From assembly GCA_049889215.1 (NCBI GenBank), contig JBMHDV010000027.1, forward strand, positions 97,185 to 161,184: a stretch of DNA of 64,000 nt. Reading direction: 5' to 3'. Origin of the DNA: Candidatus Marinamargulisbacteria bacterium (GTDB taxonomy: Bacteria > Margulisbacteria > Marinamargulisbacteria > UBA817). Both the position numbers and the translations under genes were made by a program. The notes below the pieces were generated by a model. That model worked only from the letters and a program-made list of their open reading frames with translations, was not told where the DNA came from and made no database searches. Below are positions 1,515 through 18,519 of the stretch, one piece after another (within the stretch, counting starts at the first letter, position 1; each line of letters starts with the position of its first letter).

Positions 1515-2773
1515 ATTGTTTTAACATCATCATCACTCAGTAATAATTGCTTAACTTTGTCAATTGCATGCATAACTGTAGTATGGTCTCTTTTTCCAAA
1601 GTTCTCTCCAATTTTTAATAGTGATACATTGGTAACCTCTCGGCATAAGTACATGGCTATTTGTCTTGCAAGTGCAATCTCTTTTGTTCTTACCTTGGAT
1701 GATAATTCATCAAAGTTAATATTCAAATGACTCGCGACCATACGTTTAATCTGTGGAATGGTCAGTGGCTTTTTACTATGTTCATTAATTAAGTCTTTTA
1801 TAATTTTACTTGCTGCATTTATATCGATGTTAGAATCAAGGAGGTTAGCATAAGCTGTTATTCGATTCATCGCCCCTTCTAATTCTCGAACATTGTTTGG
1901 AAATTGAGACGCGATATAGTTAAGTACATCATCTGAAATTGGCGTGTTATTATCTTCAATTTTAGTTCTTAGAATCGCAATTCTTGTTTCTAATTCTGGC
2001 GGTTGGATATCAGCTGTTAGCCCCCAACTAAAACGAGTCTTTAATCGGTCTTGTAATGTGGGAATATCGTTTGGTGGACAATCGGACGTAATTACGATTT
2101 GTTTATTTTGCCCATGAAGCTCATTAAATGTATGAAAAAATTCTTCTTGTGTTGATTCTTTTCCTGCAAGAAATTGAATATCGTCAATAAGCAAAACATC
2201 TATACTCCGATATTTATTTTTAAATTCACTAGTTGATCTGTTACGAAGGGAGTTAATTAAGTCGTTGGTAAATTTTTCTGATGTAACCAAGCAAACATTC
2301 ATATTGTTTTTTGATATCTCATTAGCTATTGCGTGTAACAAGTGTGTTTTTCCAATGCCCACTGACCCATAGATGAATAAGGGATTGTATGCATTTGCTG
2401 GACGCTTCGATACAGCCTCTGCAGCAGCGTAAGCAAATCTGTTATTGTTACCAACAATAAAGCGATCAAATGTGAATAGAGAATTAAATCGTGATGGCTG
2501 CGGAGTTGCTGGCGTGTTAAACAGTTCCAATTGATTTGTTTCTTTTGTATCCCCATTCTCAGTAACATCAATTTGAACTGCTAAATCCACATATGACTTT
2601 ATTATTGATAAACATTTATTTTCAATCCATTGCTTCATATACGGATCTGTAACGACAAGTTTTAAACTATTGTTTTCTTGATCAACTTCAACTGAATTTT
2701 TAAATATTTGTAAATTTGGCTCACTGAGGTCGTTTTTTAAATGATTCAGTAATTCTTCTTTAGTTATTGACAT
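1472..2773 (-). CDS. dnaA: Chromosomal replication initiator DnaA
   Basis: YNPLFIYGSVGIGKTHLLHAI Walker A, LLIDDIQFL, NVRELEGA, RDHTTVMHA. Likely start is ATG 2773 rather than TTG 2785. Confidence 0.98.
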   Translation of the reverse strand: MSITKEELLNHLKNDLSEPNLQIFKNSVEVDQENNSLKLVVTDPYMKQWIENKCLSIIKSYVDLAVQIDVTENGDTKETNQLELFNTPATPQPSRFNSLFTFDRFIVGNNNRFAYAAAEAVSKRPANAYNPLFIYGSVGIGKTHLLHAIANEISKNNMNVCLVTSEKFTNDLINSLRNRSTSEFKNKYRSIDVLLIDDIQFLAGKESTQEEFFHTFNELHGQNKQIVITSDCPPNDIPTLQDRLKTRFSWGLTADIQPPELETRIAILRTKIEDNNTPISDDVLNYIASQFPNNVRELEGAMNRITAYANLLDSNIDINAASKIIKDLINEHSKKPLTIPQIKRMVASHLNINFDELSSKVRTKEIALARQIAMYLCREVTNVSLLKIGENFGKRDHTTVMHAIDKVKQLLLSDDDVKTIVDNLKQQIHKSYE

Positions 2774-2775
2774 AG

Positions 2776-2839
2776 TTATCCACAATCTCTATTGGGCATA
2801 ATATACCTAAAATCTCTGCTTTCCACAATGTTATCCACA
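2776..2839. promoter_or_regulatory. dnaA promoter region with perfect DnaA boxes
   Basis: TTATCCACA at 2776-2784 and 2831-2839, plus CTTTCCACA at 2819-2827. These flank a minus-strand TTGTGG-N17-TATATT promoter candidate (2828-2800). Confidence 0.8.
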
Positions 2840-3559
2840 TTTTCTCGCGACAACGTAAACACTCGGCGAAATATCGAGTCTTTTAATAAAAAAGTTTAAA
2901 AAAAGCTCGAAACTCACTAGTAATTTTGCTGGAATATAACGTTTAATTAATTGAATTCTAAACATTCCTAGTTGTCGTTTAGTTACTATTTCAAAGTTAT
3001 TATTTTTTAAACATTGAATTACATAACTTGGATCGTAATTAAAAAAGTTTTCTGACAGCTTAGTCATTGGTTCTTTTGCTCTCATTGGATGTTTAAGTTT
3101 ATTTTTTAAGTGGTAATAATTTGGGACATCTAAAATTAATGTTCCGTTTTCTGTTAGTGCTTCATTGTATTTTCGAAATAGCTGATTTAGATCCTGCAAA
3201 TGGTGTAATGTTCGAATGGAGATAATGGCATTTACATTACTTTCTATGTTCAGCTCATATAAGCTTTGTGTGTAAAATTTAAATTTATCATTTGTTTCTC
3301 TGTTTTCTTTTGCTTGTTCAACTAATTGATTTGCATAATCAACTAAGTGGCATTTTTTAAATAGATGTTCATAACTTGGTATTAAGCGTCCAAACCCACA
3401 GCCAGCATCTAATATTTTATCTTTAGTGTCCACAAATTGATTGAGAAGAGTTTCAATTATTTGTGTTTCCAGTAAATGCTCGTATTCTCTATTTTTATTT
3501 AACCAAAATTCAGCTTTATAATCGTAATCCGAATAATCACATATTCCTATTTTTGTCAT
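2831..3559 (-). CDS. Class I SAM-dependent methyltransferase
   Basis: ILDAGCGFGR motif I; SIRTLHHL; LTENGTLILDVPN. Confidence 0.85.
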   Translation of the reverse strand: MTKIGICDYSDYDYKAEFWLNKNREYEHLLETQIIETLLNQFVDTKDKILDAGCGFGRLIPSYEHLFKKCHLVDYANQLVEQAKENRETNDKFKFYTQSLYELNIESNVNAIISIRTLHHLQDLNQLFRKYNEALTENGTLILDVPNYYHLKNKLKHPMRAKEPMTKLSENFFNYDPSYVIQCLKNNNFEIVTKRQLGMFRIQLIKRYIPAKLLVSFELFLNFFIKRLDISPSVYVVARKCG

Positions 3560-3640
3560 TGTTTTAAAACTATCATCTCTAGGTACATTTTAAAAGGATT
3601 CATTATTCAAGTTCTTTATTGCCTTTATTTAAACTTCTAT

Positions 3641-3669
3641 TTGCACAATTTATCTAGCCTCATTATCAT
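3641..3669 (+). promoter_or_regulatory. Sigma70-type promoter of mnmG (leaderless)
   Basis: TTGCAC-N17-TATCAT, ending 6 nt before ATG 3676; no SD sequence. Confidence 0.6.
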
Positions 3670-3675
3670 AGAGCC

Positions 3676-5511
3676 ATGACAAAACGGTTTGATGTGATTA
3701 TTGTTGGTTGTGGGCATGCGGGAGCTGAAGCGGCTTTAGCAGCAGCAAGAAAAGGTGTTCAAGTTGCTGTTTTTTGTTTAGATTTTTCTAAAGCTGCTAG
3801 TATGCCATGTAATCCATCCATAGGTGGTTCTGCTAAAGGGCAAATTGTTGGAGAAATTGATGCAATGGGTGGAATTATGGGAGAAGCTGCTGACAACACT
3901 TATTTACAAATTAAATATTTAAATCGTTCTCGAGGACCTGCTGTTCATGCTTTAAGAACACAAAATGATAAATATGAATATCCCAAATATGTCCAGAATA
4001 AAATTAAAAGTTACAGCAATATTTCTATTTTTGAATTAGAGATTGTTGATTTTATTCTGAATCAATCCTCTATTAGTGGCGTTGTATCATCGCATGGGGA
4101 ACAGTTTTATGCATCTTCCGTAGTAGTTACTACTGGAACCTACTTAAAGGGGCTAACTCATATTGGCTTATCAAATAAGTCTGAGGGTCGAATGGGTGAA
4201 CCTCCTTCTAATTTTTTATCAAGTAGTCTCGAGAAATTAGGTTTTAAATTAGGTCGCTTAAAAACAGGAACAACACCTAGGGTTTGTTCAACAACAATTG
4301 ATACTTCCAAAATGGTGCGTCAGCCTGGGGATCAAGAAAACTTACATTTTTCATTCAGAACGTCTAATTTTGATCGGATCAGTCATCAGGTTGATTGTTA
4401 CCTCACCAATACCAATACTAAGGTCCATGAAATAATTTCAGCTAACTTGGATCGTTCGCCAATGTATGCTGGGCTTATTGAGGGAATTGGCCCTCGTTAT
4501 TGTCCTTCTTTAGAGGACAAGGTTGTTAGATTTAAAGATAAACAATCTCACCATTTGTTTATTGAGCCAGAAAGCGAATCAACAACTGAGATCTACATAC
4601 AAGGCTTTAATACTTCCCTTCCTGAAGATGTCCAGCGCCAAATACTCGACGAAATTCCAGGATTAGAAAATTCAAAAATTCTAAAACCCGGTTATGCTGT
4701 TGAATATGATTTTGTTTTTCCCAATCAATTATATCCAACGCTTGAATCGAAACCTGTATCCGGTTTGTTTTTTGCAGGTCAAATAAATGGAACATCTGGT
4801 TACGAGGAGGCAGCTGCCCAGGGATTGGTTGCTGGTATGAATGCAGCCAATGTTTCCGCTGGTAAACCAACACATATTGTTTCACGTGAAACATCTTATA
4901 TTGGTACCTTGATCGATGACTTGACCTCAAAAAATATTATTGATGAGCCCTACAGGATGATGACTGCTCGCTCAGAGTTTAGATTATTATTGCGTCAGGA
5001 CAATGCGTTATTTCGATTATCTGAGTTTGCTTATGATCAAGGTTTATTATCCACCAACGATATTCAGCATATTCGCCATTTAGATCAAGATCGAAAGAAT
5101 TGTATTGCTTTTTGTAAGAAGCGTTCAATATCAAAAGAGTTAGCTGCAGATTTTTCTATTGAAAGAGCACCGTATAGCTCTGTTATCAAGCGTCCAGATA
5201 TAAACCATGAGGCGATTATTAGTGAGCTTGCGAGTACTTTTTCACGTGAAACTGTAGAGCGTGCATGTGTTGAAATTAAATATGAGGGGTATATAAAGCG
5301 CCAGGAAAGGCAAGTATTCAAATTGAAAGAAATGGATGATTTTATGTTGTCTTCATCATTAAATTATTCTTCGATTAATGGCTTAAGATCCGAAAGTATT
5401 GCAAAGCTTTCCCATCATCGTCCTGCCACAATACTTGAGGCAAAAAAAATTGCTGGGATAAATCCTGCTGATTTAATGATATTATTGGCACATGTTCGAT
5501 CCAAAAGTTAA
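3676..5511 (+). CDS. mnmG: tRNA uridine-5-carboxymethylaminomethyl(34) synthesis enzyme MnmG/GidA
   Basis: [48 protein letters not shown]. Confidence 0.98.
4878..4893. promoter_or_regulatory. parS site (perfect)
   Basis: TGTTTCACGTGAAACA palindrome inside mnmG. Confidence 0.9.
5238..5253. promoter_or_regulatory. parS site (2 mismatches)
   Basis: TTTTTCACGTGAAACT inside mnmG. Confidence 0.7.
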
Positions 5512-14491: not shown

Positions 14492-14818
14492 ATGTCAGTA
14501 ACAGTAGCAACAGATGAAAATTTTAAAAATGAAGTTCTAGAAAGCGACCGTCCAGCTTTGGTTGATTTTTGGGCAGAGTGGTGCGGGCCTTGTCGTATGA
14601 TGGCGCCTGTCATTGAAACAATTTCAGAAAAGTACAACGATAAGTTAAAGGTATTAAAGCTTGATGCGGACAACAACCAGCAGTCAGCTGCAGATTACCA
14701 AATCACTGGGTTACCATGCTGTGTTGTGTTTAAAGGTGGCGAAGAGATTGCACGAATTGTTGGCTTTCGAAGCGAAGATGCAATTGTTGAAGAATTAAAA
14801 AAGCACATCGACCTATAA
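14492..14818 (+). CDS. trxA: Thioredoxin
   Basis: DFWAEWCGPC motif. Confidence 0.97.
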   Translation: MSVTVATDENFKNEVLESDRPALVDFWAEWCGPCRMMAPVIETISEKYNDKLKVLKLDADNNQQSAADYQITGLPCCVVFKGGEEIARIVGFRSEDAIVEELKKHIDL

Positions 14819-14836
14819 AGAAAAAAAGGGGGGGGA

Positions 14837-16804
14837 CTATGTTGATCTACTTAGTTCAATTACTTTATTGAGTGCACGCGTAATAGCTGCTAAGCACGCT
14901 TTTTCATCCAATTGATTTACTTTACCAGTTGCATTGCCATCAATAGGAATGCCCATCTCTTCACGTGCAATACGCACACTGTCCAATGCATTTACTACAC
15001 GGCCAACAGCTGTTCTAGCAGAGGCCATTGGAAATCCAGATCGTATGATCACCTTATGGTTAAAGTGTTCAATAACAATAAATGGACGTGCATGTCCGTT
15101 GTTGTTTTCAGTAGCGGCAAATAAAAATGAGGCAATATTACCTCGACTATCTTGGCCAGTCGCAAGATCATTACCAATCATCCCCTCTAAAGCCGCTATA
15201 TTTATTTCATTTGCAAGATACGAGTCATTAATAGAATCTTTCGATAATTTTACAATGTCAGGTAAATTTAGACCCAGAGAGGTGAATTTATTAGCGTCTA
15301 TCGTTGCATTAAATGTAGGGCCTCGATCAGTATGGTAATTTGATAAGATTCCCCCCTTTGCTTCCCAACCTGTTTTAGGAGTCATTTTGTTCATTATTTG
15401 GCGACAAAGTTCTGCATAGGCATTGGCACGATTAGCCCCTTGAGTTTCTCCGACATGCAATCGAACATTTTGTCGAACGGTTGAGTTGCCCAATTGAACA
15501 ACATCATGTCCATTTTGAATGATTAAGGAATGCCCAAGTCGTTTTTCAAGGCGGTTTAATGTATTATCTTCATTTTTTTCATCAGTAGCCATAATTTTTT
15601 TGTTTTGTTCAGCTAAAAATAACGGGTCATTTAACATAGAAATAAAACGATCGGTTGATTGTTTCCTTTTATTTATTTGCCTATAAAAAATTTGGGCAAT
15701 AATTTCTGGAGTTTTTGTTTCTATTGTAATATCACAATGATTTAATAACGTTACTGCGTTTGAGCCCTGCATATCAAACAGGCCAGAGACCACAATCGAA
15801 TGGCCCGCCACAGAGAATGAGTTCAATGGTATATTAACATTTGTAACATAGTTTTCGACTAGGGATGCCATTGTCGCATTGCTAGTACCGTCCACATCTT
15901 GTGGAACATCAAGTCGTACAATATCACCTGTTCCTGCATTATGGTGATCCATATGATGAGCTCGGTTTCCTTTAAAAAAGATGGATCGAAGTGCAGCAAG
16001 ATTTTGCAAAATTGCTAAGACCCCAGTGGATTTTGCAAATAGGGTTGGATCCTTTGTGTTTTCTTTTCCAAAGATCGCCACCGCATCTTCAGTAAGCTTT
16101 TCATCGCATTTGTTCAAAGAATAAGTATCAAGAATCGGGCTTTTAATTCGGCCAATCAGCGTAGTTGAATTATAACAGATTTCCCAGTGAACTAATGGAC
16201 CGTATTGGGGGCGATTCGATTTAAAATCAATGCCAGAATCAATGGCATGACTTAATAATATGGCCGTGGCTTTTATTGCATTTGATGGAATTAAAGCATC
16301 CAAATACGGAAATGTCGCATTGATAATACCTTTATTATTCGTAATTGCTCGTAATGGGTCTTTTCGTGCAGCATTATAAATATCATAAATTCCTTCAGCC
16401 ATTTTATGACCAGATACCTCATCTTTTTGTAATCGGTTAAATGGGATGACACATTCAATCATTAATGTATTTTTAACCTTTTTAATATTTAGAGTTTCGA
16501 CCAATTTTCCCATTCCAGTAGCCCCAGCAATAACGGATGCTTCCTCTTGTTTTAATGGGTAAAAACTTTGATTAAAAATTGCACTAGGTAGTTGGACAAC
16601 CCCTAAAGGTATTTTAGCTATATTTTTTTCTGCCATTGGTTCAACATGATTGGGTAAGCCAAATAATTCCCGGCGCTCACAAACAGTCATTTGATGTAAT
16701 TTCGGCTGTTGACCTGTTTGAATGGCTCTGTAATTTTGTCGTAATAAGCCATGACGCTGCTGTTTTCGTGTGAACAATGTTAAGGACGGGATTAATCGAT
16801 GCAT
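14837..16804 (-). CDS. Tandem-duplicated, divergent class II HMG-CoA reductase-like protein (single-chain pseudo-dimer)
   Basis: Half 1 has EEASVIAG, DPLRAITNNKGIIN and LQNLAALRS..GNRAHHM. Half 2 has VENYV, ETQGAN, ILSN and LATGQDSR. These are recognisable variants of the class II HMGR motifs EEPSVVAA, DPYRAATHNKGIMN, AQNFAALRA..GIQRGHM, IENVIG, DAMGAN, ILSN and ATGNDWR. Confidence 0.75.
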   Translation of the reverse strand: MHRLIPSLTLFTRKQQRHGLLRQNYRAIQTGQQPKLHQMTVCERRELFGLPNHVEPMAEKNIAKIPLGVVQLPSAIFNQSFYPLKQEEASVIAGATGMGKLVETLNIKKVKNTLMIECVIPFNRLQKDEVSGHKMAEGIYDIYNAARKDPLRAITNNKGIINATFPYLDALIPSNAIKATAILLSHAIDSGIDFKSNRPQYGPLVHWEICYNSTTLIGRIKSPILDTYSLNKCDEKLTEDAVAIFGKENTKDPTLFAKSTGVLAILQNLAALRSIFFKGNRAHHMDHHNAGTGDIVRLDVPQDVDGTSNATMASLVENYVTNVNIPLNSFSVAGHSIVVSGLFDMQGSNAVTLLNHCDITIETKTPEIIAQIFYRQINKRKQSTDRFISMLNDPLFLAEQNKKIMATDEKNEDNTLNRLEKRLGHSLIIQNGHDVVQLGNSTVRQNVRLHVGETQGANRANAYAELCRQIMNKMTPKTGWEAKGGILSNYHTDRGPTFNATIDANKFTSLGLNLPDIVKLSKDSINDSYLANEINIAALEGMIGNDLATGQDSRGNIASFLFAATENNNGHARPFIVIEHFNHKVIIRSGFPMASARTAVGRVVNALDSVRIAREEMGIPIDGNATGKVNQLDEKACLAAITRALNKVIELSRST

Positions 16805-16833: not shown

Positions 16834-17541
16834 TTATTGTTTTAATGCGGCTACCGCTGTTTTGTAATTTGGGCTTGCAAATAAATATGAGGCAGAAATC
16901 AATACAGTGGCACCCGCCTGGATTAATTGATGAGCATTGGTGTCATTAACTCCACCATCCACTTTTATTTCTCCAGAAAAGTGACGTCGAACCTGTGCAA
17001 CACGATCCACGGCATCTTGAATAAACGACTGACCAGAAAAACCAGGGTGAACACTCATAATAAGCACACTATCTACATTTGGTAATATAGGAAGCAATAC
17101 ATCAGTATTTGTATTTGGGTTAATCGTAATTCCAGGCTTTATCCCTTTTGAATTTAAATATGAGATATCGTTTTGCAAACGATCATAGTCAACATGTTGT
17201 ACTGTTCGTGATTGATCTAAAATTGAGTCATGTTTAACTGCAGCTGTATCGTAAGCTTCAATATGGAAACAAATTTCATTAACATCGCATTGAATGTATG
17301 CATCAAAAAACATCCATGGAGCGTCAATCATTAAATGAGCATCCAGTGGAAGATTTGTAATACCTCTAATGGGTTTGATTACAGGAGGTCCAAATGACAA
17401 GCTTGGTGCCATATGGTTATCCATGACATCCAAATGTAATGAATCAACACCAGCTGACTCAACTTTTGCAATATCATCGCCTAGGGTTAAGAAATTTGCG
17501 GATAAAATACTCGCTGAAACTTTTATGTTATCATTGCCCAT
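16834..17541 (-). CDS. rpe: Ribulose-phosphate 3-epimerase
   Basis: SILSANF, LHLDVMDNH, DAHLMI, MSVHPGFSGQSF, VDGGVN. Confidence 0.95.
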   Translation of the reverse strand: MGNDNIKVSASILSANFLTLGDDIAKVESAGVDSLHLDVMDNHMAPSLSFGPPVIKPIRGITNLPLDAHLMIDAPWMFFDAYIQCDVNEICFHIEAYDTAAVKHDSILDQSRTVQHVDYDRLQNDISYLNSKGIKPGITINPNTNTDVLLPILPNVDSVLIMSVHPGFSGQSFIQDAVDRVAQVRRHFSGEIKVDGGVNDTNAHQLIQAGATVLISASYLFASPNYKTAVAALKQ

Positions 17542-18519
17542 ATGGAAAACTATAAGATGGAATCTAAAAAAGATCTAGAGCTTGAAAGCTCAGTTTTCAA
17601 AATGAATGAAATTACAAAAAAATTTAAACTTACACCACGAACCATACGGTATTACGAATCAGAAGGACTTTTAGGGGAAGTAACCCGTAGCATTGGCTAT
17701 ACTCGTTATTTTAGCGAGGAAGCAGTTAATCGACTAAAAGAGGTTATTCGCCTAAAAAGAAAAGGGTTAAAAATAGCTGAAATAAAAGCAATGTTTGATG
17801 AGAAGTATCCCTCAAAAAAAGTTAAACAAATAAGTCAACTTTGCATTAGCGATGTTTTTTTATCAAAGGACGATATCTCAAAATGTGTTCAACATAATAT
17901 CTTAGTAAGGGAATCAACAATTAAAATTAAAAAGTTGAAATTAAATTACCTAGATTGGAAAAAGTTAAGTTTTTGTGAGTATGAACAACCATTTGATATC
18001 GTGTCTAAACCAGTTGAGTCAACGCCATCTTTACACATCGGGCTTCCTCATTTTGACCGCTGGCTAGGCAATGCAAATCGCAGTATTGTGAAACATCTTT
18101 TCGCTCAGATAAATACAGTTAAAATTAATCAGAATTGGGTTGATCTAATGATCCAAGGGGCCTGTGAATGGTGTATTTACCCTGCAAAAATTTTGGTGAA
18201 AGATCCATTTATAAATGAGGTTGATCAACCGTATTTAATTAAAGTTAGATATGCAAAAGAAGAAACGCACCATATTGTTTTTGAAAAGGATTTATTTGAT
18301 ACTCTTGAACGGCAATTTAAAGCGTATTCAAAGCAAAGAGAAAGATTATTAAACCATGTCACCCTCTCAATATTTCCACAACATCCAAATGTAAAAAAAT
18401 TTAATTCTTTTATTCAAAAGATGGTCCCTCATAAGGAGCTGTTGACCATAGAAGATTTGTCACCAGTCTACTTAAAAAGTTTGAAAGATGAATGTGGTAT
18501 TCTTCTATCGTTTGTTTAA
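17542..18519 (+). CDS. MerR-family HTH regulator with a degenerate DegV-like C-terminal region
   Basis: LTPRTIRYYESEGLL..GYTRYF..GLKIAEIK is a MerR HTH. The C-terminal part only weakly resembles DegV. The start may be ATG 17557 or later. Confidence 0.7.
   Translation: MENYKMESKKDLELESSVFKMNEITKKFKLTPRTIRYYESEGLLGEVTRSIGYTRYFSEEAVNRLKEVIRLKRKGLKIAEIKAMFDEKYPSKKVKQISQLCISDVFLSKDDISKCVQHNILVRESTIKIKKLKLNYLDWKKLSFCEYEQPFDIVSKPVESTPSLHIGLPHFDRWLGNANRSIVKHLFAQINTVKINQNWVDLMIQGACEWCIYPAKILVKDPFINEVDQPYLIKVRYAKEETHHIVFEKDLFDTLERQFKAYSKQRERLLNHVTLSIFPQHPNVKKFNSFIQKMVPHKELLTIEDLSPVYLKSLKDECGILLSFV

What the first reader, a model, noticed from the sequence alone, without database searches (positions are those of the whole stretch)
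14837..16804. Single-chain pseudo-dimeric HMG-CoA reductase: two fused half-dead subunits that complement to one active site
Seen in sequence: the 655-aa ORF holds two copies of class II HMGR motifs. Half 1 (aa ~35-290) keeps EE88ASV, DPLR152AITNNK158GIIN162 and flap GNRAHH284M. It has deleted the ~110-aa NAD(H)-binding small domain (only ~12 aa separate EEASVIAG from the post-small-domain strand) and has lost ATGND. Half 2 (aa ~300-655) keeps VENYV, the small domain (ETQGAN453-458 for DAMGAN; ILSN) and LATGQD552SR, but has lost the Glu, the Lys (NEINIAALEG) and the His flap. Established for Pseudomonas mevalonii HMGR: the active site lies at the dimer interface, with Glu83/Lys267/His381 and the HMG-CoA pocket from one subunit and Asp283 plus the NAD-binding small domain from the other. 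The losses here follow that partition exactly. Inference: duplication-fusion with reciprocal degeneration produced a monomeric, one-active-site reductase, possibly with altered cofactor or substrate. I know of no described HMGR with this architecture.
Basis: partly seen in the sequence, partly recalled or inferred. Interest (0 to 1): 0.9.

Follow-up and report, generated by a model that had tools for sequence, protein, structure and literature searches.

The report
Single-chain two-half HMG-CoA reductase relative
A marine bacterium encodes one long protein made of two fused, differently crippled copies of HMG-CoA reductase that together appear to rebuild a single working active site, an arrangement not described for this well-studied enzyme.

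Summary
The 655-aa ORF (window 14837-16804, minus strand) has two HMG-CoA-reductase (HMGR) halves. A profile of each half matches solved class II HMGRs on its own: half 1 E 2e-27, half 2 E 1e-13.

- **Half 1** lacks the NAD(P)-binding small domain and the catalytic Asp. It keeps Glu88, Arg152, Lys158, Asn162 and His284.
- **Half 2** keeps the small domain and Asp552. It lacks the Glu, Arg, Lys and the flap.
- **Conservation:** this reciprocal pattern is present in every sequence of a rare 15-sequence family that covers the site, down to 24% identity.
- **Packing:** folded as two chains, the halves pack like an HMGR dimer (ipSAE 0.92, best control 0.00). Half-1 pocket residues touch the half-2 ILSN loop and the helix after Asp552. 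That pass may reflect likeness to solved HMGR dimers.
- **Genome:** it uses the MEP pathway. I found no mevalonate kinase, HMG-CoA synthase, diphosphomevalonate decarboxylase or HMG-CoA lyase.
- **Locus:** the gene sits in one conserved slot (trx-[gene]-rpe). It is absent from three same-genus genomes and diverges much faster than its neighbours.

Activity, substrate, cofactor and oligomeric state are untested. My literature searches found no description of this architecture. I rate it a new variant of a known kind.

The parts
14837..16804 (-). Whole 655-aa ORF (stop codon included): single-chain, two-half HMGR-family protein.
16706..16804 (-). aa 1-33: variable, acid-free, Arg/Lys-rich N-terminal leader. 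Predicted disordered. Function unknown.
   Evidence: pLDDT <50 for 1-31; 8 of 9 full-length members have such a leader
15920..16705 (-). Half 1 (aa 34-295): HMGR large domain without the small domain. It carries the HMG-CoA-side residues.
16592..16633 (-). aa 58-71 (AEKNIAKIPLGVVQ): half-1 counterpart of the ENVIG dimerisation strand. It is at the modelled interface with half-2 residues 312-329.
16532..16546 (-). aa 87-91 (EEASV): E88 = P. mevalonii Glu83, S90 = Ser85.
   Evidence: (11 of 11 sequences covering the site)
16442..16495 (-). aa 104-121: short beta-hairpin that stands where the ~105-aa NAD(P)-binding small domain is in ordinary HMGR.
   Evidence: domain limits from passages of PMC12292504
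16316..16360 (-). aa 149-163 (DPLRAITNNKGIINA): R152 = Arg261 (HMG carboxylate), K158 = Lys267, N162 = Asn271.
   Evidence: 12 of 12; residues 148-162 at the interface
16268..16297 (-). aa 170-179 (ALIPSNAIKA): degenerate ATGND motif of half 1, with A176 at the Asp283 position.
   Evidence: (0 of 12 have Asp in this column)
15938..15970 (-). aa 279-289 (GNRAHHMDHHN): remnant of the flap. H284 = His381, H288 = His385.
   Evidence: H284 in 13 of 13; low pLDDT
15869..15937 (-). aa 290-312: linker between the halves, predicted disordered.
   Evidence: 282-318 pLDDT <50; variable length across the family
14840..15919 (-). Half 2 (aa 296-655): HMGR large plus small domain, without Glu, Arg, Lys and flap. 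It supplies the NAD(P) domain and the Asp.
15335..15709 (-). aa 366-490: NAD(P)-binding small domain of half 2, including ETQGAN 453-458 (window 15431-15448) and ILSN 486-489 (window 15338-15349).
   Evidence: (G456, A457, N458, N489 in 14 of 14)
15182..15226 (-). aa 527-541 (DSYLANEINIAALEG): degenerate DPYRA.THNKGIMNG helix of half 2. L530, I536 and E540 stand at the Arg, Lys and Asn positions.
   Evidence: (Lys 0 of 13, Arg 0 of 14)
15143..15163 (-). aa 548-554 (ATGQDSR): retained ATGND motif. D552 = Asp283.
   Evidence: T549, G550, Q551, D552, R554 in 13 of 13; 550, 553-555, 557-559 at the interface
16834..17541 (-). rpe (ribulose-phosphate 3-epimerase), 29 bp upstream on the same strand. 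Probably co-transcribed with the ORF. It is the conserved left border of the slot.
14492..14818 (+). Thioredoxin gene, convergent with the ORF. It is the conserved right border of the slot.

Best explanation
The ORF encodes a single-chain pseudo-dimer of class-II-type HMG-CoA reductase. An ancestral HMGR gene was duplicated and fused (inferred). The two copies then lost complementary parts.

- Half 1 lost the NAD(P)-binding small domain, the catalytic Asp and most of the flap. It kept the HMG-CoA side of the site: Glu88, Ser90, Arg152, Lys158, Asn162, His284.
- Half 2 lost the Glu, Arg, Lys, Asn and flap. It kept the small domain (GAN, ILSN) and Asp552.

The halves pack against each other as the two subunits of an HMGR dimer do. 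One of the two interface sites is therefore complete and the other is obliterated.

Most likely the protein is an active NAD(P)H-dependent oxidoreductase. Its substrate would be HMG-CoA/mevalonate or a very close analogue carrying the same carboxylate. NADPH is tentatively favoured, because no acidic residue stands at the Asp146 position.

The organism makes isoprenoids by the MEP pathway and has no other mevalonate-pathway gene. The enzyme is therefore an orphan accessory function that is gained or lost between close relatives.

Shown: architecture, conservation and modelled packing. Inferred: catalysis, substrate, cofactor and the order of evolutionary events.
For: - Each half is HMGR on its own. 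Half-1 profile vs PDB: 2.1e-27 and 3.6e-27, in two stretches that skip the small domain. Half-2 profile: 1.3e-13. Pfam on the whole protein: 37.5 bits, over the cut-off.
- Foldseek of the AF2 model (pTM 0.76) gives 98 hits at E<=1e-3. All rows shown are HMGR; the best is 7m66_B at 4.4e-11.
- Conservation over 15 family sequences, counted where each site is covered:
  - E87, E88, S90: 11 of 11.
  - R152, K158, N162: 12 of 12.
  - H284: 13 of 13.
  - G456, A457, N458, N489: 14 of 14.
  - T549, G550, Q551, D552, R554: 13 of 13.
  - Asp at the half-1 Asp column: 0 of 12.
  - Lys at the half-2 Lys column: 0 of 13.
  - Arg at the half-2 Arg column: 0 of 14.
- Two-chain model: ipSAE 0.91, 0.92, 0.92, best of 3 controls 0.00. 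The mark was reached by 58 of 80 solved complexes and 2 of 110 mismatched pairs. These counts hold only roughly, because my own alignment was used. Runs agree in at least 81% of contacts and partner pLDDT is at least 88. Contact pairs include 154/155-489, 151-488, 158-558 and 152-371. Mirrored surfaces are 148-162 with 547-566, 170-184 with 532-543, and 58-71 with 312-329.
- Subunit partition in passages of PMC7503714 and PMC10070635.
- The gene is real in independent data: fused ORFs in 3 metagenome contigs and in several database clusters. A second DNA run holds identical contigs.
Against: - No activity, ligand or oligomer data exist.
- The complex pass may come from the model's memory of solved HMGR dimers. 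It shows likeness, not binding.
- D552 and H284 themselves are not among the confidently touching residues. The His segment has pLDDT <50. I could not measure distances or superpose on 1qax.
- The flap, which in class II enzymes closes the site and also touches the cofactor (passages), is reduced to about 10 residues.
- TIGR00532 (degradative HMGR equivalog) scores 41 bits against a cut-off of 259.95.
- No gene that would make or use HMG-CoA or mevalonate was found in a 95%-complete genome.
- The protein evolves fast: 41-43% identity where neighbours keep 67-83%. It is dispensable in three same-genus genomes.
- That Asp283 of P. mevalonii comes from the NAD-binding subunit rests on homology with the human enzyme, not on a statement I read for that enzyme.
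Confidence: 0.72

Rival explanations
1. The architecture is the same, but the enzyme has taken on a new function. The single site acts on a substrate other than HMG-CoA/mevalonate, for example another 3-hydroxy-acid thioester or aldehyde. This would explain why no mevalonate-pathway partner exists.
For: - No MK, HMGS, MDD or HMG-CoA lyase was found.
- The flap is truncated.
- Family-specific invariant blocks have no counterpart in ordinary HMGR: QYGPLVHW, RAHHMDHH, MASARTAVGR, GKVxxLDE.
- The sequence diverges fast.
Against: - All residues that hold the HMG moiety in class II enzymes (Glu, Ser, Arg261-, Lys267- and Asn271-equivalents, and the two small-domain Asn) are invariant (roles from passages).
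- Canonical HMGRs in two other genomes of the same class also lack MK while having Dxr. Orphan status therefore does not by itself indicate a new substrate.
Confidence: 0.2
2. It is a pseudoenzyme. The fused protein has lost catalysis and serves as a ligand-binding or regulatory protein.
For: - The flap is truncated.
- The score against the HMGR equivalog model is very low.
- The gene is dispensable in close relatives.
- Some members of the nearest cluster are split into two ORFs on one contig.
Against: Every catalytic residue is kept in exactly the complementary pattern over sequences down to 24% identity, while the non-complementary copies of the same residues are lost. A non-catalytic protein is not expected to keep such a pattern.
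Confidence: 0.1
3. It is an exported or host-directed protein. The basic, acid-free N-terminal leader would be a targeting signal. The single-chain enzyme would act outside the bacterial cytoplasm, for example on a eukaryotic partner's HMG-CoA/mevalonate pool.
For: - 8 of 9 full-length members carry a 16-54 aa leader with no Asp or Glu and 3-11 Arg/Lys.
- The leader is disordered in the model.
- A single chain needs no partner subunit after transport (inference).
- The gene is an accessory one with presence/absence variation.
Against: - No secretion-system link was tested or seen.
- Start codons of the homologues are unverified gene calls.
- The leaders are not alike in sequence.
Confidence: 0.07
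4. It is an artefact: two adjacent genes joined by an assembly or gene-calling error, or chance motif matches.
For: None found.
Against: - One uninterrupted frame.
- The same fused ORF occurs in independent assemblies at 41-62% identity.
- Fragments in the library span the junction between the halves: P0010 covers profile positions 235-563, P0011 covers 122-336 and P0018 covers 248-529.
- Identical DNA contigs occur in a second sample.
Confidence: 0.01

Closest known systems
Class II HMG-CoA reductase (e.g. Pseudomonas mevalonii MvaA, PDB 1qax; E. faecalis, S. pneumoniae enzymes)
   Same: - Same fold.
- Same catalytic Glu/Lys/Asp/His and HMG-binding Arg/Asn motifs.
- Active site built across an interface between an HMG-CoA-binding large domain and the NAD(P)-binding small domain of the partner (passages).
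   Different: - Ordinary enzymes are homodimers, or higher assemblies, of ~420-430-aa subunits with two equal sites.
- Here the two 'subunits' are one 655-aa chain and unequal. One lacks the small domain.
- Each has lost the residues that the other supplies, so only one site can be complete.
- The flap is cut to its His-bearing start.
- There is no mevalonate pathway around it.
Orphan HMGRs of bacteria without a mevalonate pathway (Burkholderia cenocepacia, PDB 6p7k; Delftia acidovorans, 6dio). That these organisms lack the pathway is recalled, not checked here.
   Same: An HMGR-family gene in an organism that does not need it for isoprenoid synthesis, with an unclear physiological role. In this phylum, two genomes with ordinary-length HMGR matches also have Dxr and no mevalonate kinase.
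   Different: Those are ordinary one-domain-set subunits that form symmetric oligomers.
MvaE of Enterococcus (acetoacetyl-CoA thiolase fused to HMGR; PDB 7m1z is so named)
   Same: HMGR as part of a longer fused polypeptide.
   Different: MvaE fuses two different enzymes, and its HMGR part still forms a symmetric homodimer (passages). Here two HMGR copies are fused to each other.
Mammalian adenylyl cyclase C1-C2 pseudo-heterodimer and ABC transporters with one degenerate nucleotide site (recalled textbook cases, not checked here)
   Same: Duplication and fusion of a homodimeric interface enzyme. Reciprocal loss of complementary residues then leaves one catalytic and one dead site.
   Different: Unrelated folds and chemistry. 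They are cited only as a precedent for the evolutionary logic.

Membership tests
HMG-CoA reductase family (Pfam PF00368) | Score over Pfam's gathering cut-off (27 bits) | tested here: met
   Whole protein 37.5 bits. Half 2 alone 27.6 bits. Half 1 alone 21.7 bits, below the cut-off.
HMG-CoA reductase family | HMGR fold | tested here: met
   AF2 model pLDDT 72.6, pTM 0.76. Foldseek vs PDB: best 7m66_B at E 4.4e-11, TM (target) 0.66. All listed rows are HMGR.
Class II HMGR | Catalytic Glu83, Lys267, Asp283, His381 (P. mevalonii numbering) | tested here: met
   All four are present once each, split between the halves: E88, K158 and H284 in half 1, D552 in half 2. They are invariant in the family.
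Class II HMGR | Every subunit has a large domain, an NAD(P)-binding small domain and a ~50-aa C-terminal flap (domain limits from passages of PMC12292504) | tested here: not met
   Half 1 has no small domain, only residues 104-121 in its place. Half 1 keeps about 10 flap residues and half 2 keeps none.
Class II HMGR | Symmetric homodimer with two equivalent interface sites | tested here: not met
   It is one chain with two unequal halves. The second site lacks Glu, Arg, Lys, His, Asp and a small domain. The pseudo-twofold packing is modelled only.
Degradative HMGR equivalog (NCBIfam TIGR00532) | Score over the curated cut-off of 259.95 bits | tested here: not met
   41 bits.
Mevalonate pathway enzyme set | Co-occurrence with HMG-CoA synthase, mevalonate kinase and diphosphomevalonate decarboxylase, or with HMG-CoA lyase for the degradative route | tested here: not met
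   Own genome is 95% complete.
- MK: 19.1 bits vs cut-off 163.
- HMGS: 44.2 bits vs 360.
- MDD: 18.7 bits vs 171.
- The two HMGL-like proteins are LeuA and an aldolase-like protein.
- Dxr and IspH are present.
HMG-CoA reductase (enzyme activity) | NAD(P)H-dependent interconversion of HMG-CoA and mevalonate | not testable with these tools
   Needs an assay of purified protein.

The most novel reading that the evidence does not exclude
The fused, one-site HMGR is no longer a mevalonate-pathway enzyme at all. It would be a stand-alone accessory oxidoreductase of marine Margulisiibacteriota with either a new substrate or a new place of action. The place of action could be outside the cytoplasm, with export directed by its basic, acid-free N-terminal leader, possibly onto a eukaryotic partner's HMG-CoA/mevalonate pool. 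On this reading, single-chain construction is what lets it work without finding a partner subunit.
Probability: 0.15. Interest if true: 0.85.

Novelty: new variant of a known kind. Interest (0 to 1): 0.7.

Why it matters
HMGR is among the most studied enzymes because it is the statin target and the control point of the mevalonate pathway. Every passage I read on it describes a symmetric dimer with two shared sites.

A natural single-chain form with one live and one dead site would be useful in three ways.
- It would be a clean natural experiment on which subunit contributes what.
- It would be a tool for studying the enzyme without subunit exchange, half-of-sites effects or concentration-dependent oligomerisation.
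- It would be a clear example of duplication, fusion and reciprocal degeneration, which locks two copies together without any gain per residue: 655 aa per site against about 428.

It also adds to the unexplained orphan HMGRs in bacteria that use the MEP pathway. It flags a fast-evolving, gained-or-lost gene in a poorly known marine phylum.

Tried and rejected
- **Half against half:** hhalign gave E 0.13, probability 0.45, so there is no detectable similarity between the halves themselves. Their common origin rests on each matching HMGR. I cannot tell a tandem duplication from a fusion of two older paralogues, and I built no tree.
- **Half 2 as a single sequence against PDB:** no HMGR hit. Only the 4-sequence profile found them.
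- **ESM Atlas:** no hit by features. The Atlas's own model is poor (pTM 0.39), with TM below 0.5 to HMGR clusters. This is uninformative.
- **Recent horizontal transfer:** I rejected this as the simple reading.
  - The gene is missing between trx and rpe in three same-genus genomes.
  - However, three metagenome contigs, whose flanking genes are as close to the window as those genomes are, carry a 41-43% identical copy in the same slot.
  - The ORF's GC (0.377) equals the genome's (0.378).
  - An old resident gene with losses fits better.
- **Gene neighbourhood as a clue to function:** the slot neighbours are housekeeping genes. The distant member in G027 lies among unrelated genes. There is no lead.
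- **Promoter and terminator scan:** nothing between rpe and the ORF. Co-transcription is inferred only.
- **RNA evidence:** two metatranscriptome runs each hold one short identical contig inside the gene, of 255 and 215 bases. The rest of the stretch has no cover in them. DNA carry-over is not excluded, so transcription is not shown.
- **Cofactor call:** HMMER's alignment to 5wpj and my family alignment disagree on the register around the RGGG motif. The NADPH leaning is tentative.
- **Literature:** searches found no paper on a fused, duplicated or pseudo-dimeric HMGR, or on mevalonate in Margulisbacteria. Searches served to find residue descriptions. Supplementary figures of PMC10070635 that detail ligand contacts could not be seen.
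- **Oligomer of the whole protein:** two copies exceed the size limit of complex prediction, so this was not tried.
Full report
**What is there.** Window 14837-16804 (minus strand) is one open frame of 655 aa.
- It lies 29 bp downstream of rpe on the same strand and converges on a thioredoxin gene 18 bp away.
- The wider neighbourhood is rpsB, tsf, an HD-domain phosphohydrolase, trx, [ORF], rpe, a MerR-family gene, an M24 aminopeptidase and thyA.
- No promoter-like or terminator-like site separates rpe from the ORF.
- The ORF's GC is 0.377 and the genome's is 0.378.

**Two HMGR halves.**
- The whole protein passes Pfam HMG-CoA_red at 37.5 bits against a cut-off of 27, in three stretches.
- It is far below the NCBIfam equivalog for degradative HMGR: 41 bits against 259.95.
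- phmmer against PDB finds P. mevalonii HMGR (1qax) at E 1.4e-8. Query 122-289 aligns to chain 231-386. There are weak collinear pieces, 80-102 to 75-97 and 450-489 to 180-216.
- I split the protein at residue 295 and turned each half into a 4-sequence profile from the window and three loci. Both halves then hit solved HMGRs independently.
  - Half 1: 9v7y at 2.1e-27 and 1qax at 3.6e-27. These come as two stretches that jump from about chain residue 95 to 202-228, that is, over the small domain.
  - Half 2: 7m3h at 1.3e-13 and 5wpj at 7.9e-11 over chain 81-296. This covers the small domain and the Lys/Asp helices.
- The two halves are not detectably similar to each other (hhalign E 0.13).

**Residue bookkeeping.**
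- From the alignments: E88=Glu83, R152=Arg261, K158=Lys267, N162=Asn271, H284=His381. A176 stands where Asp283 would be.
- From, half 2 aligns in register with DPYRA.THNKGIMNG...ATGND. L530, I536 and E540 stand at the Arg, Lys and Asn positions, and D552 is the Asp.
- ETQGAN aligns to DAMGAN, and ILSN to ILSN.
- The region of half 2 that corresponds to the Glu83 turn (residues 340-348) has no conserved acid.
- Half 2 ends where the hinge before the flap would be. Half 1 keeps only GNRAHHMDHHN of the flap before a disordered linker.

**A small, conserved family.**
- A word-indexed search gave 7 relatives of 41-62% identity and 529-701 aa.
- An exhaustive profile search of 1.84 billion representatives gave 622 hits at E<=1e-3 but only 11 at E<=1e-30. 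The rest are ordinary HMGRs that match mainly the half-1 region.
- The 11 strong hits include three further full-length members: P0009 (680 aa), P0015 (715 aa) and P0016 (740 aa). They also include fragments, several of which span the junction of the halves. I therefore saw no unfused form.
- I aligned 15 sequences, leaving out P0011, P0012 and P0017. The reciprocal pattern has no exception wherever a sequence covers the site:
  - E87, E88, S90: 11 of 11.
  - R152, K158, N162: 12 of 12.
  - H284: 13 of 13.
  - G456, A457, N458, N489: 14 of 14.
  - T549, G550, Q551, D552, R554: 13 of 13.
  - Asp in the half-1 Asp column: 0 of 12. P0009 has an Asp one column earlier.
  - Lys in the half-2 Lys column: 0 of 13.
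  - Arg in the half-2 Arg column: 0 of 14.
- P0015 and P0016, at 24-25% identity, keep more canonical motifs (NVIG, EEPSV, DRAMGAN, RGG) but show the same losses. The arrangement therefore predates the family's divergence (inference).
- Sources name these proteins 'hypothetical protein' or 'hydroxymethylglutaryl-CoA reductase'. Two NCBI records are from Candidatus Margulisiibacteriota MAGs.

**Structure.**
- AlphaFold2 on the 8-sequence alignment gave mean pLDDT 72.6 and pTM 0.76. Disorder falls at 1-31, 55-61, 282-318 and 599-627.
- Foldseek against PDB returned 98 hits at E<=1e-3. All listed rows are HMGRs, class II first (7m66_B at 4.4e-11, TM by target 0.66).
- The tools give no coordinates. 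I therefore tested the packing by folding residues 36-295 and 296-655 as two chains.
  - ipSAE was 0.91, 0.92 and 0.92, and the best of 3 controls was 0.00.
  - There were 255-271 contacts. Runs agree in at least 81% of contacts, and partner pLDDT is at least 88.
  - The mark is reached by 58 of 80 solved complexes and 2 of 110 mismatched pairs. These counts hold only roughly, because my own alignment was used.
  - HMGR dimers are solved, so this pass may be memory of them. It shows likeness, not binding.
- The interface is informative.
  - Homologous surfaces face each other: 58-71 with 312-329 (the ENVIG-type strands), 148-162 with 547-566, and 170-184 with 532-543.
  - The half-2 ILSN loop (483-490) lies on half-1 residues 151-155, with no reciprocal contact, because half 1 has no small domain.
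  - Low-error pairs include 154/155-489, 151-488, 158-558 and 152-371.
  - D552 and H284 themselves are not in the confident list.

**Does the partition fit known HMGR?**
- Passages of a review of the human enzyme say the HMG pocket is formed by S684, D690, K691, K692 and D767 of one subunit and by E559, K735, N755, L853 and H866 of the other. They also say NADPH binds the S-domain of the subunit opposite to the one holding HMG-CoA.
- K735 and D767 occupy the sequence positions of class II Lys267 and Asp283. This is my inference from the NK and GQD/GND motifs.
[quoted passage not shown] They say Glu86, Arg257 and Asn267 are large-domain pocket residues. Asn187 and Asn213 come from the adjacent monomer's small domain.
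- The half-1 set (Glu, Arg, Lys, Asn, His) and the half-2 set (small-domain Asn residues, Asp) match this split.
- I did not find a sentence stating the origin of Asp283 for P. mevalonii itself.

**Pathway context.** The genome has 1.9 Mb in 34 contigs and is 95% complete.
- Present: Dxr (414 bits) and IspH (311 bits).
- Not found: mevalonate kinase (19.1 bits), HMG-CoA synthase (44.2 bits against 360) and diphosphomevalonate decarboxylase (18.7 bits).
- There is no second HMGR.
- The two HMGL-like proteins are a 2-isopropylmalate synthase and an aldolase-like protein, not HMG-CoA lyase.
- Two other genomes of the class that hold ordinary-length HMGR matches also have Dxr and no mevalonate kinase.
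- G008 carries a fragment of the P0009 type. It has a sub-threshold GHMP kinase (84 bits) and no Dxr at 77% completeness. This is inconclusive.

**Distribution and locus history.**
- Among 146 genomes of the phylum, fused-type matches occur in G000 and in three others. G014 and G008 carry fragments at contig ends. G027 has a 740-aa ORF.
- There are none in 4 same-genus genomes (71-89% complete) or in the one other same-family genome.
- In G053, G055 and G056, trx and rpe are adjacent. The query jumps from base 2338 to 4359 while the target moves about 20-27 bases. A G8 run stands at the junction in both forms.
- Three metagenome contigs carry a 41-43% identical copy in the same slot. One shows the full series rpsB to thyA.
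- Their flanking genes are 67-83% identical to the window's. The exceptions are the MerR-family gene at 36-37% over its full length (71% over the 59 residues held in L027) and pepP at 50-57%. The same-genus genome G053 shows a similar range, 71-82%, for the same genes.
- The gene is therefore an old resident of this slot. It evolves several times faster than its neighbours and has been lost cleanly in some lineages.
- Some members of the closest cluster are split in two ORFs on one contig.

**Expression.** The stretch occurs in seawater metagenomes.
- One DNA run may be the source, and a second sample holds identical contigs.
- Two metatranscriptome runs of the same study each hold one identical short contig inside the gene.
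- This is a weak hint only.

**Mechanism proposed.**
- Half 1 binds HMG-CoA or mevalonate and supplies Glu88, Lys158, Asn162, Arg152 and the thiol-protonating His284 on a short tethered flap.
- Half 2 binds NAD(P)H on its small domain and supplies Asp552 and the two Asn residues that line the pocket.
- The mirror site is gone.
- At the positions that set cofactor choice in class II enzymes, the family has L416, R418 and R422, going by the family alignment anchored on the RGG motif of P0015/P0016. In P. mevalonii these positions are Asp146, Leu148 and Leu152. In E. faecalis they are Tyr, Ser and Arg (passages). This leans to NADPH, but HMMER aligns the stretch differently.
- Per active site the fused protein costs more residues than a homodimer. 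The arrangement therefore looks like a neutral ratchet after fusion rather than an economy (inference).

**Verdict.**
- It belongs to the HMGR family by fold and motifs. It fails the family's defining subunit architecture, so I call it a new variant of a known kind.
- Activity, substrate, cofactor, oligomeric state and physiological role remain open.

Noticed in passing
window 16706-16804 (aa 1-33) and the N-termini of P0002-P0007, P0015, P0016: 8 of 9 full-length family members start with a 16-54 aa leader that has no Asp or Glu and 3-11 Arg/Lys. P0009 is the exception. The leader looks like an organellar presequence or some other signal. The start codons are unverified gene calls.
   Followed up: partly
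window ~14819-14836 and L015 ~3824-3851: A run of eight G follows the trx stop codon, both in the window and in the same-genus genome that lacks the gene. It sits exactly at the presence/absence junction.
   Followed up: no
window 15938-15970 (aa 279-289): The flap remnant is a strictly conserved His-rich block, RAHHMDHH (R281, A282, H283, H284, M285, D286 and H288 are invariant in A1). This is more His than the canonical GHMxLH motif, and a metal or extra proton relay is conceivable.
   Followed up: no
window 17542-18519 (+): The MerR-family gene next to rpe is also fast-evolving. It is 36-41% identical to its counterparts, where the housekeeping neighbours keep 67-83%.
   Followed up: no
L028 15912-17603 (G027:C34): A 563-aa glutaminase with an EF-hand_14 domain and ankyrin repeats lies about 5 kb from the distant family member. 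Such a domain set is reminiscent of animal kidney-type glutaminase (recalled).
   Followed up: no
proteins P0157+P0162 and P0159+P0161 (cluster of P0002): Members of the closest relative's 90% cluster occur as two shorter ORFs on one contig: 386+228 aa and 113+132 aa. These are possibly frameshifted or decaying copies.
   Followed up: no
G029:C1:78431-78925, G003:C7:33320-33745: Ordinary-length HMGR matches (439- and 486-aa frames) occur in two genomes of the same class. Both genomes have Dxr and no mevalonate kinase, so orphan HMGRs seem common in this phylum.
   Followed up: partly
L030 1111-2730 (G000:C26): A 539-aa protein with an HMGL-like/DRE-TIM N-terminal half resembles 4-hydroxy-2-oxovalerate aldolase only weakly (115 bits against a cut-off of 229). 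The function of its C-terminal half is unknown.
   Followed up: no
window 14934-15338 (+): A 134-aa ORF lies antisense inside the gene. It is probably a chance frame.
   Followed up: no
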